Below are positions 60,601-63,600 of a stretch of DNA of 64,000 bases, piece by piece. The position numbers were made by a program. This DNA comes from Escherichia coli (GTDB taxonomy: Bacteria > Pseudomonadota > Gammaproteobacteria > Enterobacterales > Enterobacteriaceae), in the NCBI RefSeq assembly GCF_044324785.1, contig NZ_CP172127.1, one strand, 5' to 3'. The stretch's first letter is position 1. The number at the start of each line of letters is the position of its first letter.

Positions 60601-63600
60601 TGGAAAATGGCGGTAATTTATTGGTATTAGCAGGTACCGAAGCTCGCGATTCCACGGTTGGCAACGGTGGGGCAATGCAAAACCTGGGTCAGGACTTCGC
60701 CACAAAGGTTAATTCCGGTGGGCAATATACCCTTGGTCGGTCAAAAGATGAGTTTCAGGCTCTGGCCCGGGCAGAAGATCTACAGATCGCTGGCGGGACG
60801 GCAATCGTCTACGCAGGTACGCTGGCGGATGCATCGGTCAGTGGCGCGACAGGAAGCCTGTCGTTAATGACGCCACGGGATAATATTACGCCAGTTAAAC
60901 TTGAAGGGGTGGTCCGGATTACCGATAGCGCGACATTAACTATCGGAAATGGCGTCGATACGACGCTTGCCGACCTGACGGCTGCCAGCCGGGGCAGTGT
61001 CTGGCTTAACAGCAATAATTCCTGTGCAGGCACCAGCAACTGCGAATATAGAGTAAACAGTTTGCTCCTCAACGACGGTGATGTTTATTTATCAGCACAA
61101 ACAGCAGCGCCTGCCACAACTAACGGTATCTACAATACGCTGACCACCAGTGAACTTTCCGGCAGCGGTAATTTCTACCTGCATACCAACGTTGCAGGCT
61201 CCCGGGGCGATCAACTGGTCGTCAACAACAACGCCACTGGCAATTTTAAAATCTTTGTTCAGGATACCGGCGTCAGCCCTCAGTCTGACGACGCGATGAC
61301 GCTGGTGAAAACAGGGGGAGGGGATGCTTCGTTTACGCTGGGTAATACTGGCGGTTTCGTTGATCTTGGGACCTATGAGTATGTCCTGAAAAGCGATGGT
61401 AACAGCAACTGGAACCTGACCAATGATGTCAAACCCAACCCGGACCCCAACCCAAATCCGAAGCCGGATCCAAAACCAGACCCAAAACCGGATCCGAAAC
61501 CAGACCCGACTCCCGATCCAACGCCGACACCCGTCCCGGAGAAACGCATCACGCCTTCTACGGCAGCCGTACTCAATATGGCAGCAACATTACCGTTGGT
61601 CTTTGATGCTGAGCTAAACAGTATTCGCGAGCGGTTGAACATAATGAAAGCGAGTCCACACAACAATAATGTCTGGGGGACGACGTATAACACCCGTAAT
61701 AATGTCACCACCGATGCGGGTGCCGGGTTTGAGCAGACGCTGACCGGAATGACGGTGGGGATCGATAGCCGTAATGATATTCCTGAGGGGATTGCGACGC
61801 TGGGCGCTTTTATGGGTTATTCCCATTCACATATCGGTTTTGATCGTGGAGGGCATGGCAGTGTGGGCAGTTATTCTCTGGGGGGCTATGCCAGCTGGGA
61901 ACATGAAAGTGGTTTCTATCTGGACGGTATCGTGAAGCTGAACCGCTTTGAAAGTAACGTAGCCGGTAAAATGAGCAGCGGTGGAGCCGCCAACGGCAGT
62001 TATCGCAGCAACGGGCTGGGCGGTCACATTGAAACCGGGATGCGATTTACCGATGGTAACTGGAACCTGACGCCGTATGCATCGTTAACGGGGTTCACCG
62101 CTGATAACCCCGAATATCATTTATCCAATGGCATGGAATCGAAATCAGTCGATACTCGCAGTATATATCGCGAACTGGGCGCAACGCTGAGTTACAACAT
62201 GCGTCTGGGGAACGGTATGGAAATTGAGCCGTGGCTGAAGGCGGCTGTGCGCAAAGAATTTGTCGATGATAACCGGGTGAAGGTGAATAATGACGGTAAT
62301 TTTGTCAATGATTTGTCGGGCAGACGTGGAATATACCAGGCAGGTATTAAAGCCTCATTCAGCAGTTCGTTAAGCGGGCATCTCGGGGTGGGGTATAGCC
62401 ATGGTGCCGGTGTGGAATCCCCGTGGAATGCGGTAGCTGGTGTGAACTGGTCGTTCTGACCATCAACGAAAAAGCCCACATCTGTGGGCTTTCATATCAC
62501 CAGGAGCCGCGGCTCCTTTGCGTATCCTTTTATGTCTCCTCACCGTCTGGTCGGTGTCTTGCTGAGACTTCTAACTTCCTGTTTTTGTTGGTGTTGTCCT
62601 TGCACCGTCCAATCATGATTGGTGGAGCTGGCGGGAGTTGAACCCGCGTCCGAAATTCCTACATCCTCGGTACTACATGCTTAGTCAGTCTTTACATTCG
62701 CTTGCCAGCTGCGGACGGACACGCCACTAACAAACTAGCCTGATTAAGTTTTAACGCTTCAACCCCAGGCAGGGCTTCCACGCGATCTCTTTTGGGTTTG
62801 ACCTCTCTTGATCCCCGTCCTAAGAGCGGAGGCTAGGGAGAGAGGGCTCTAAGCAGGTTATTAAGCTGCTAAAGCGTAGTTTTCGTCGTTTGCGACTATT
62901 TTTTGCGGCTTTTTACGAGGCCAACCGCCCCTCGGCATGCACCTTGGGTTTCGCAAATCCCGTCGAATCCAGAATCAGCCCCAATGTGTAACGGTAAGTA
63001 TACCAGATTTATGAGTGCCATGACCAGCCTCAATGGCGTTATCGTTAAAGATTTAGCACCCATGTAGCCTGATTTTTATTCGATTAAGCAATGGGATGGC
63101 AACATTTGTGTCGGATGTGATAGCCAATAAGATGTTCATTCGCGCCGCCGGAGAGGGAGGCGCGGTGAGGAACTGGTCAATAATTGGAGTGCAGGTTTAA
63201 CGGTGGGCGTTTTTCATGATACGCGCTTTATCCACCTGCCATTCGCGTTCTTTGATGTCTGAACGTTTATCGTGCTGTTTCTTACCTTTAGCGACGCCGA
63301 TTTTCACTTTGCACCAGGCATTTTTCCAGTACAGGGAGAGCGCCACTACGGTATAGCCTTCTCGATTGACGCGACCGTACAATGAGTCCAGTTCGCGCTG
63401 GTTGAGAAGTAACTTGCGGGTACGGGTAGGATCGCACACCACATGCGTGGAGGCCACGGCCATTGGCGTGATGTTAGCGCCAAACAGAAATGCCTCTCCG
63501 TCACGCAGAAGGACGTAACTGTCGCTGATATTGGCTTTTCCTGCGCGCAGGGATTTAACCTCCCAGCCTTGCAGGGCAAGTCCCGCTTCGAACTCTTCTT

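What the first reader, a model, noticed from the sequence alone, without database searches (positions are those of the whole stretch)
62460..62620. Empty 3-prime flank of ssrA: no integrated element at the tmRNA attachment site
The autotransporter gene ends at 62459 and the tmRNA 3-prime end is at 62620, leaving only about 160 bp with a terminator hairpin. There is no integrase gene and no duplicated ssrA 3-prime segment. The tmRNA 3-prime end is a frequent prophage or island attachment site, and from memory K-12 carries the CP4-57 cryptic prophage here, so this looks like the unoccupied state of that locus.
Basis: partly seen in the sequence, partly recalled or inferred. Interest (0 to 1): 0.35.

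Follow-up and report, generated by a model that had tools for sequence, protein, structure and literature searches.

The report
Unoccupied tmRNA gene attachment site
This E. coli strain lacks the CP4-57-type element that K-12 carries at the end of its tmRNA gene; the 160-bp gap is the gene's own conserved trailer and terminator, and about half of sequenced E. coli share this ordinary arrangement.

Summary
ypjA ends at 62459 and tmRNA (ssrA, minus strand) ends at 62620. The 160 bp between them hold no integrase and no copy of the ssrA 3' end.

The window equals K-12 with the 22,031-bp CP4-57 removed exactly at the ssrA 3' end. ssrA is 363/363 identical to K-12's mature ssrA, including T357. The state is common: 2527 of 5426 complete E. 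coli genomes join ssrA directly to this spacer, and 1388 have the full ypjA-spacer-ssrA arrangement. It is not an assembly artefact and not novel.

Three refinements:
- The spacer is not empty. It is the native ssrA 3' trailer plus intrinsic terminator. It is conserved across Enterobacterales, at 83-91% identity in most genera and 77-78% in Mangrovibacter and Tatumella, and its hairpins covary. K-12 has it displaced 22 kb away.
- In occupied E. coli the displaced ssrA fragment is usually damaged (T357 deleted, or a 5-nt deletion). The intact junction here is therefore the ancestral form, not a scar from excision in such a lineage.
- The neighbouring 10.7-kb low-GC block (ygaQ to ypjA) is itself accessory. 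It is absent from B2 E. coli and two other Escherichia species, and it sits just beyond the terminator.

Interest is low. The conserved trailer is the only lead worth following.

The parts
62620..62982 (-). ssrA (tmRNA), intact. It is 363/363 identical to K-12 mature ssrA, with T357 present.
62620..62667 (-). Nested attB cores in the 3' end of ssrA. About 23 nt (62620-62642) is repeated at both ends of CP4-57 in K-12. Other E. coli elements leave attR fragments that reach 14, 32 or 48 nt into ssrA.
62460..62619 (.). The spacer of the finding: 160 bp with no integrase, no ORF with a domain hit and no ssrA repeat.
62465..62619 (-). Native ssrA 3' trailer (about 150 nt) through the terminator. 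It is conserved across Enterobacterales, and homology stops right after the T-run.
62465..62493 (-). Intrinsic terminator of ssrA: AAAGCCCAC-AGAU-GUGGGCUUUUU on the minus strand. The A-run on the other side gives a weaker terminator-like site for convergent ypjA. The stem covaries (GC<->AU at one pair in 14-15 of 77 sequences).
62503..62516 (-). Hairpin P3, the 14-nt palindrome GGAGCCGCGGCTCC. The B2 allele has GGAGTCGCGACTCC, a compensatory change.
62534..62568 (-). Hairpin P2: outer stem GUCUC/GAGAC and inner stem CACCG/CGGUG, with the conserved loop ACCAGA.
62575..62589 (-). Conserved single-stranded A-rich stretch AACAAAAACAGGAAG, five consecutive A-R-N triplets, kept in 66 of 77 versions.
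62590..62606 (-). Hairpin P1 with conserved loop AGGAC. It shows the strongest covariation across genera. In this window two of its six pairs are mismatched.
62609..62622 (.). Perfect 14-nt palindrome CCAATCATGATTGG that includes the tmRNA CCA end. It was found as an exact match in many genera, but it was part of the search patterns, so its invariance in the alignments is by construction.
62997..63026 (-). Sigma-70-like promoter upstream of ssrA (TGGTCA-18-TATACT with an extended TG).
63197..63679 (-). smpB
57762..62459 (+). ypjA/ehaD AIDA-type autotransporter, convergent with ssrA. This is the longest ORF; the likely ATG start is at 57882 or 57891.
51731..62468 (.). 10.7-kb accessory block (ygaQ, ileY, fused ypjC-ypjB, pinH remnant, ypjA). 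GC is 29-45% over 51.5-58 kb. The block is replaced by 333 bp in B2 E. coli ATCC 25922 and is absent in E. whittamii and Escherichia sp. E1V33. Its right edge is the foot of the ssrA terminator.

Best explanation
The interval 62460-62619 is the native, unoccupied 3' flank of ssrA.

**Attachment site.** The last 20-50 nt of the intact tmRNA gene (62620 to about 62667) form the attB that tyrosine-integrase elements such as CP4-57 recombine with. No such event is present here.

**What the spacer is.** The 160 bp are not filler. They are ssrA's own transcribed trailer of about 150 nt. It has three internal hairpins and ends in a Rho-independent terminator at 62465-62493. That hairpin also faces the convergent ypjA gene.

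**Inferred working.**
- Transcription starts at the ssrA promoter near 63000 and runs through the tmRNA and trailer to the terminator.
- RNase E and 3' exonucleases then cut back to the CCA end. RNase E dependence is known for K-12 tmRNA.

**What an integrating element changes.**
- It supplies its own copy of the ssrA 3' end, its own trailer and its own terminator.
- It pushes the original 3' fragment, the native trailer and ypjA to its far end. This is what K-12 shows.

**Shown versus inferred.** Shown here: the anatomy, the exact correspondence with K-12, the population frequency, and the cross-genus conservation and covariation of the trailer. Inferred: termination and processing in vivo, and competence of this attB for integration.
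For: - **Gene and spacer anatomy:**
- **No repeat of the ssrA 3' end:**
- **K-12 annotation:** CP4-57 at 2755941-2777971 and the 14-nt 'psaA' fragment.
- **Exact correspondence:** The three-way alignment of the window with K-12 attL and attR and BLAST colinearity show the window equals K-12 minus the element.
- **Frequency:** 2527 of 5426 complete E. coli genomes have ssrA contiguous with the spacer. 1388 have ypjA-spacer-ssrA as here.
- **Ancestral junction:** The same junction and trailer occur in 13 GTDB species of Escherichia, Citrobacter, Enterobacter, Klebsiella, Lelliottia, Trabulsiella, Mangrovibacter, Tatumella and others, and in 80 metagenome contigs.
- **Trailer conservation:** Identity to the window is 83-91% in other genera where the trailer aligns over its full length. 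It is 92% over the first 116 nt in Trabulsiella and 77-78% over about the first 116-120 nt in Mangrovibacter and Tatumella. For comparison, the smpB CDS is 78-82% identical, and nothing aligns past the T-run.
- **Covariation:** 77 distinct versions, 96% of cells paired, 10 pairs with double changes, and no shuffle of 500 reaches the observed covariation score or the observed count of double-changed cells. Slid controls pair at 37-49%.
- **Terminator fold:**
- **Literature:** The tmRNA locus is a multi-element hotspot (PMC10121019). CP4-57 excision yields a tmRNA lacking U357 (PMC10107115). RNase E processes the tmRNA precursor (PMC11347164, citing Lin-Chao 1999).
Against: - Nothing contradicts the unoccupied reading.
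- The simple terminator scan did not flag the minus-strand hairpin. Probably its stem extension consumed the T-run.
- There are no expression data for this strain.
- The history of the lineage, never occupied versus precisely restored, cannot be read from one sequence.
- The window's trailer allele differs by 10.6% from the B2 allele and has two mismatches in hairpin P1. Constraint on the trailer in E. coli may therefore be weaker than the cross-genus picture suggests.
Confidence: 0.9

Rival explanations
1. Secondary emptiness. An ancestor of this strain carried an element at ssrA, and the element later excised or was removed by recombination. The site would then be restored rather than never used.
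For: - About half of E. coli genomes are occupied.
- CP4-57 is known to excise (PMC10107115).
- The window's trailer allele is the K-12 type and has a partly mismatched P1 hairpin. That could reflect a period without selection.
Against: - In occupied E. coli the displaced ssrA fragment next to the trailer is usually damaged. T357 is deleted in 626 genomes and 5 nt are deleted in 542, across different elements.
- Excision in such a lineage gives a defective tmRNA, as published for K-12.
- The window's ssrA is intact, and its junction is identical to that of other genera.
- Some occupied genomes do keep an intact fragment: the intact junction 32-mer gives 2416 places in 2302 genomes. Excision from one of those, or repair by homologous recombination, cannot be excluded.
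Confidence: 0.15
2. The flank is occupied after all. On this view the 10.7-kb ygaQ-ileY-ypjCB-pinH'-ypjA block is a degraded genomic island that entered through the ssrA attachment site and lost its integrase.
For: - The block has low GC (29-45%).
- It holds a tRNA gene and a recombinase pseudogene (pinH in the K-12 annotation).
- It is absent from B2 E. coli, E. whittamii and Escherichia sp. E1V33, where glaH lies about 350-420 bp from the trailer.
- So it is very probably horizontally acquired.
Against: - The block lies beyond the native trailer and terminator. An element that used the ssrA 3' end would sit between ssrA and the trailer.
- No ssrA-derived repeat exists at its far end or anywhere in the window.
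- It has no integrase.
- It is fixed in position and colinear in K-12.
- It is an old accessory block next to the site, not an occupant of the site.
Confidence: 0.05
3. Assembly collapse. A real element flanked by repeats was dropped during assembly.
For: None found.
Against: - The same junction occurs in 1388 complete genomes, some 100% identical over the 361-bp junction query.
- No repeat in the window could drive a collapse.
Confidence: 0.02

Closest known systems
ssrA / CP4-57 attachment site of E. coli K-12 (attL at ssrA, attR 'psaA' next to ypjA)
   Same: Same locus, same flanking genes, same 160-bp spacer and same ssrA sequence. The element boundary maps to window 62619-62642.
   Different: The element is absent here. 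The ssrA 3' end is followed by the native trailer, not the CP4-57-supplied trailer and terminator. The junction keeps T357, which the K-12 attR fragment lacks.
tmRNA gene as a multi-element integration hotspot (hotspot #9 of Hochhauser et al. 2023, PMC10121019; Williams 2002/2003; Islander database PMC4383910)
   Same: It is the same hotspot. In E. coli, different elements leave attR fragments of 14 to 48 nt of ssrA, as expected if several integrase families use different sublocations.
   Different: This is the empty state. Across the 41 hotspots of that study, median occupancy was 8%. Here about 53% of complete genomes are not contiguous at the ssrA junction.
Rho-independent terminators and 3' trailers of stable-RNA genes, including tRNA 3' external transcribed spacers that act as sRNA sponges (3'ETS-leuZ; from my own knowledge, not checked here)
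   Same: It is transcribed downstream of a CCA end, must be removed by RNase E and exonucleases, ends in a hairpin plus U-run, and has a conserved single-stranded A-rich stretch.
   Different: No evidence here that the trailer accumulates or binds anything. No Rfam family matches it. It is much longer and more conserved than a bare terminator requires.
Streptococcus pyogenes M1UK ssrA terminator read-through into prophage speA (PMC9951164)
   Same: It shows that the terminator after ssrA controls how far the strong ssrA promoter drives whatever lies downstream.
   Different: It is a different organism, and an element is present downstream there. Here the downstream gene (ypjA) is convergent.

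Membership tests
Unoccupied attB of tmRNA-gene-integrating elements (CP4-57 type) | Intact target gene 3' end at the position where elements recombine | tested here: met
   Full-length tmRNA, 363/363 identical to K-12 mature ssrA, with the core ACTCCCGCCAGCTCCACCA present.
Unoccupied attB of tmRNA-gene-integrating elements (CP4-57 type) | No integrase and no displaced duplicate of the target 3' end downstream | tested here: met
Unoccupied attB of tmRNA-gene-integrating elements (CP4-57 type) | A homologous locus in another strain holds an element bounded by the repeat at exactly this point, with the same outer flanks | tested here: met
   K-12 CP4-57, 22,031 bp. Other elements are seen in KL53, HN68, strain 200112 and strain 110.
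Unoccupied attB of tmRNA-gene-integrating elements (CP4-57 type) | The site supports integrase-mediated integration in this strain | not testable with these tools
   Needs an IntA/attP integration assay.
Rho-independent (intrinsic) terminator | GC-rich stem-loop immediately followed by a U-run on the transcribed strand | tested here: met
   Minus strand AAAGCCCACAGAUGUGGGCUUUUUCG. The stem is kept by compensatory changes across 77 sequences. The simple scan did not list it.
Rho-independent (intrinsic) terminator | Transcripts end there in vivo | not testable with these tools
   Needs Term-seq or 3' RACE in a strain with the empty site.
Genomic island integrated at a tRNA/tmRNA gene (considered for the block 51731-62468) | Presence/absence polymorphism with atypical composition | tested here: met
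Genomic island integrated at a tRNA/tmRNA gene (considered for the block 51731-62468) | Integrase gene and flanking direct repeats derived from the target gene; island abuts the regenerated gene end | tested here: not met
   No integrase and no ssrA-derived repeat. The block starts after the trailer and terminator, not at the CCA end.
Structured non-coding RNA element (considered for the trailer 62465-62619) | Conservation beyond neighbouring non-coding DNA, and base pairs kept by compensatory changes | tested here: met
   Caveat: sequences were collected with exact patterns covering alignment columns 14-34, so that stretch is invariant by construction.
Structured non-coding RNA element (considered for the trailer 62465-62619) | Membership of a described RNA family | tested here: not met
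   Rfam 15 gives nothing at gathering score. The best sub-threshold hits have E of 0.2 or worse.

The most novel reading that the evidence does not exclude
The about 150-nt native trailer of ssrA may be more than a terminator. It could be a conserved, structured 3' external transcribed spacer of pre-tmRNA with its own role. One option is tuning 3' maturation or the level of tmRNA. Another is release by RNase E as an abundant small RNA: it has an (ARN)5 stretch plus a terminator U-tail, features typical of Hfq ligands.

If so, roughly half of E. coli have this element cut off from its promoter by an integrated element. That includes K-12, where tmRNA biogenesis was worked out, and O157. Occupancy of the ssrA site would then carry a hidden regulatory cost.
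Probability: 0.3. Interest if true: 0.55.

Novelty: already known. Interest (0 to 1): 0.2.

Why it matters
As stated, the finding is a routine presence/absence polymorphism at a well-known integration hotspot. It identifies the strain as lacking CP4-57 and as having an intact, available attB.

It matters slightly for two reasons:
- In this strain tmRNA is made from its native transcription unit. In K-12 the 3' end, trailer and terminator of ssrA come from a prophage, and prophage excision inactivates tmRNA.
- The native trailer is as conserved as a coding gene across Enterobacterales and is structurally constrained, yet no Rfam family covers it and the paper searches found no description of it. 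If it has a function, the model strain cannot show it.

Tried and rejected
- **Small proteins in the spacer.** A 28-codon ORF starts at the ATG inside the palindrome. Read from the alignment, most other genera reach a stop after 4 codons. An antisense 28-codon Cys-rich ORF (ATG at 62532) has no conserved start, is cut short in Enterobacter, and shows no third-position bias. Both were rejected by inspection.
- **Long-range pairing.** RNAalifold paired the tmRNA acceptor 3' strand with the P3 region. The local P3 hairpin explains the C->U/G->A double change better, so I used the local model.
- **Sub-threshold Rfam hits.** isrB, rsmX, mir-138 and STnc350 score E of 0.2-8.8. I treat them as chance.
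- **ileY as a displaced ssrA fragment.** The similarity (score 18 against a null maximum of 16) is tRNA-like T-arm resemblance on the wrong strand.
- **Partial hits ending at 62469.** The '1-270' hits looked like a second insertion point. They are a ycgH-like autotransporter pseudogene near minE.
- **Pfam test of the pinH remnant.** It failed because of stop codons. I rely on the K-12 annotation and colinearity.
- **Literature.** Searches for the trailer sequence or for a described ssrA 3' spacer RNA found nothing. Williams 2003 (PMC142792) is not held.
- **Failed scripts.** Two Python calls failed because L002 was not yet on disk.

Full report
**1. Checking the observation**

ARAGORN and Rfam both find one full-length tmRNA gene at 62620-62982 on the minus strand. 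It scores 295.8 bits against a gathering score of 47 and encodes the tag ANDENYALAA.

The plus-strand ORF ending with TGA at 62457-62459 encodes an AIDA-repeat, pertactin and beta-barrel autotransporter. RefSeq annotates it as YpjA/EhaD in matching genomes.

The gap is 62460-62619, 160 bp. The two ORFs that touch it have no Pfam match.

There is no second copy of the ssrA 3' end:
- The terminal 18 or 40 nt, with up to 3 mismatches, occur once in the 64 kb.
- A local alignment of the terminal 60 nt scores 6-7 in the spacer, against 11-16 for shuffled queries.

The spacer holds a GC-rich hairpin between an A-run and a T-run.

**2. Comparison with K-12**

The MG1655 record annotates 'cryptic prophage CP4-57' at 2755941-2777971, 22,031 bp, from intA to ypjF. 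A 14-nt pseudogene 'psaA' follows, then 160 bp, then ypjA.

BLAST aligns K-12 on both sides of the window:
- The smpB-ssrA side is 99.4% identical to window 64000-62619.
- The attR-ypjA-glaH side is 93-95% identical to window 62642-50516.

The two pieces overlap on window 62619-62642. A three-way alignment shows the window reads like attL up to the CCA end and like attR from there on. So the window is K-12 without the prophage.

The window's ssrA is 363/363 identical to K-12's mature ssrA.

**3. How common the state is**

| Query | Test | Complete E. coli genomes (of 5426) |
|---|---|---|
| 361-nt junction-centred query | one place covers at least 80%, so ssrA is contiguous with the spacer | 2527 |
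| 481-nt query that also requires the ypjA end | one place covers at least 80% | 1388 |

The empty site is thus the state of 47% of complete genomes. The exact arrangement of this window is found in 26%. Some genomes are 100% identical over the junction query, so assembly collapse can be dismissed.

The tmRNA locus is a published hotspot used by prophages, satellites and integrative elements (PMC10121019).

**4. Ancestral junction or excision scar**

I aligned attR junctions from five occupied genomes carrying different elements. All have a damaged ssrA fragment next to the spacer:
- K-12, KL53 and strain 200112 lack T357.
- HN68 and strain 110 lack 5 nt.

Exact-word searches give the population counts:

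| Form of the junction | Complete E. coli genomes |
|---|---|
| Fragment lacking T357 | 626 |
| Fragment lacking 5 nt | 542 |
| Intact junction 32-mer | 2302 genomes, 2416 places |

Published work shows that CP4-57 excision in K-12 produces a tmRNA lacking U357, which is inactive (PMC10107115). The window has the intact form, so it is not what excision from those lineages would leave.

Excision of an element with a perfect repeat, or repair by recombination, cannot be excluded. I give secondary emptiness 0.15.

**5. What the spacer is**

An exact search for the junction in one genome per species found it in 13 species. They include Escherichia whittamii, Escherichia sp. E1V33, Citrobacter, Enterobacter, Lelliottia, Pseudenterobacter, Klebsiella, Trabulsiella, Mangrovibacter and Tatumella.

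Aligned, the about 150 nt after the CCA end are conserved up to and including a hairpin plus T-run. After that point all sequences diverge.

Identity to the window in other genera:

| Region | Identity to the window in other genera |
|---|---|
| Trailer, full length (Citrobacter, Lelliottia, Enterobacter, Pseudenterobacter, Klebsiella) | 83-91% |
| Trailer, first 116 nt only (Trabulsiella) | 92% |
| Trailer, about the first 116-120 nt only (Mangrovibacter, Tatumella) | 77-78% |
| smpB coding sequence | 78-82% |
| tmRNA | 95-97% |
| smpB-ssrA intergenic region | only the last 47 nt align |
| After the terminator | nothing aligns |

Two of the 13 hits (L012, L014) carry only the last 27-29 nt of tmRNA upstream of the trailer. 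They are attR-type junctions in occupied genomes.

A metagenome scan added 80 loci, giving 77 distinct trailers in all. I tested a model of four hairpins plus the terminator on them:
- 96% of cells form pairs, against 37-49% when partners are slid.
- 10 pairs show changes on both sides.
- No shuffle of 500 reaches the observed covariation score or the observed number of double-changed cells. For the count of pairs with a double change, 3 of 500 shuffles do.
- The strongest covariation is in hairpin P1 and the terminator stem.

One caveat applies. Both collection patterns included the palindrome CCAATCATGATTGG and its neighbours, so invariance of alignment columns 14-34 is by construction.

The spacer is therefore the native 3' trailer and intrinsic terminator of ssrA, part of its transcription unit. 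In K-12 this unit is broken. The prophage supplies a different trailer and terminator at attL, and the native trailer sits 22 kb away.

RNase E dependence of tmRNA precursor processing is established for K-12 (PMC11347164, citing Lin-Chao 1999).

**6. The neighbourhood**

In the B2 strain ATCC 25922, glaH is followed by 333 bp and then the trailer and ssrA. Window 51731-62468 has no counterpart there.

E. whittamii and Escherichia sp. E1V33 are colinear with that arrangement. By parsimony it is ancestral for the genus.

The extra 10.7 kb in the window:
- has 29-45% GC over its first 6 kb;
- holds ygaQ, ileY, a fused ypjC-ypjB ORF, the pinH remnant and ypjA.

It lies beyond the terminator, has no integrase and has no ssrA-derived repeat. 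It is old accessory DNA beside the site, not an occupant of the site.

**7. Leads that remain open**

The single-stranded stretches of the trailer are also conserved. One of them, AACAAAAACAGGAAG, is five A-R-N triplets. It is kept in 66 of 77 versions, and its variable columns fall at the R and N positions. About 5% of shuffles reach five triplets.

No Rfam family covers the trailer, and no held paper contains its sequence. This allows, but does not show, a role beyond termination.

Within E. coli the window and B2 trailers differ by 10.6%, while tmRNA differs by 0.3% and smpB by 1.4%. That fits either linkage to the variable block or relaxed constraint in a species where the trailer is often displaced.

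**8. Verdict**

The feature is already known in kind and common in the species, so interest is low. The conserved native trailer is the only part that might repay experiments.

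Noticed in passing
window 62465-62619 (minus strand); alignments A2 and A4: The about 150-nt ssrA 3' trailer is conserved across Enterobacterales, at 83-91% identity in most genera and 77-78% in Mangrovibacter and Tatumella, against 78-82% for the smpB CDS. Its hairpins covary. No Rfam family covers it and no paper was found. K-12 has it displaced 22 kb from ssrA.
   Followed up: yes
window 51731-62468: A 10.7-kb low-GC block (ygaQ, ileY, ypjC-ypjB, pinH remnant, ypjA) is absent from B2 E. coli ATCC 25922, E. whittamii and Escherichia sp. E1V33. Its right edge is exactly the foot of the ssrA terminator.
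   Followed up: yes
L001 23465-23490 (K-12 attR); L018-L021 near position 2920: The displaced ssrA fragments at attR in occupied E. coli are damaged in two recurrent ways, and each lesion is shared by unrelated elements. T357 is deleted in 626 genomes and 5 nt are deleted in 542. This suggests the old fragment persists while the elements in front of it are exchanged.
   Followed up: partly
window 62465-62619 versus L002 20001-20151: Within E. coli the trailer differs by 10.6% between this window and B2 strain ATCC 25922, while tmRNA (0.3%) and smpB (1.4%) next to it barely differ. Several of the differences are compensatory pairs in hairpins.
   Followed up: partly
L017 5990-6175 (E. coli CT01 'plasmid unnamed3', a 43.7-kb circular dusA-type prophage): The phage carries a degenerate tmRNA 3' fragment plus a foreign-type ssrA trailer (84% identical to the window) beside a type II restriction-modification pair. 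It looks like chromosomal DNA picked up next to another host's ssrA.
   Followed up: partly
window 62575-62589 (minus strand): An (ARN)5 stretch AACAAAAACAGGAAG lies in the single-stranded part of the trailer and is kept in 66 of 77 versions. Together with the terminator U-tail it resembles Hfq-binding features.
   Followed up: partly
window 55505-56959 and 51867-54119: ypjC and ypjB form one 484-aa ORF here (DUF5507 plus DUF5508), and ygaQ is an intact 750-aa ORF. K-12 annotates two separate genes and a pseudogene.
   Followed up: no
L003 11916-12270 (E. coli KBN10P04869, near minE): An autotransporter pseudogene remnant shares about 96% identity with the last 260 nt of ypjA plus 10 nt past the stop. 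These paralog hits inflate naive counts of the ypjA end.
   Followed up: partly
window 22340-22652, 25563-25634, 32232-32309: Ordinary backbone RNA genes: a tRNA-Ser/Arg/Arg cluster, MicA, and naRNA4 (CssrE). Their spacing relative to ssrA looks consistent with colinearity to K-12; I recalled the K-12 coordinates from memory and did not check them with a tool.
   Followed up: no
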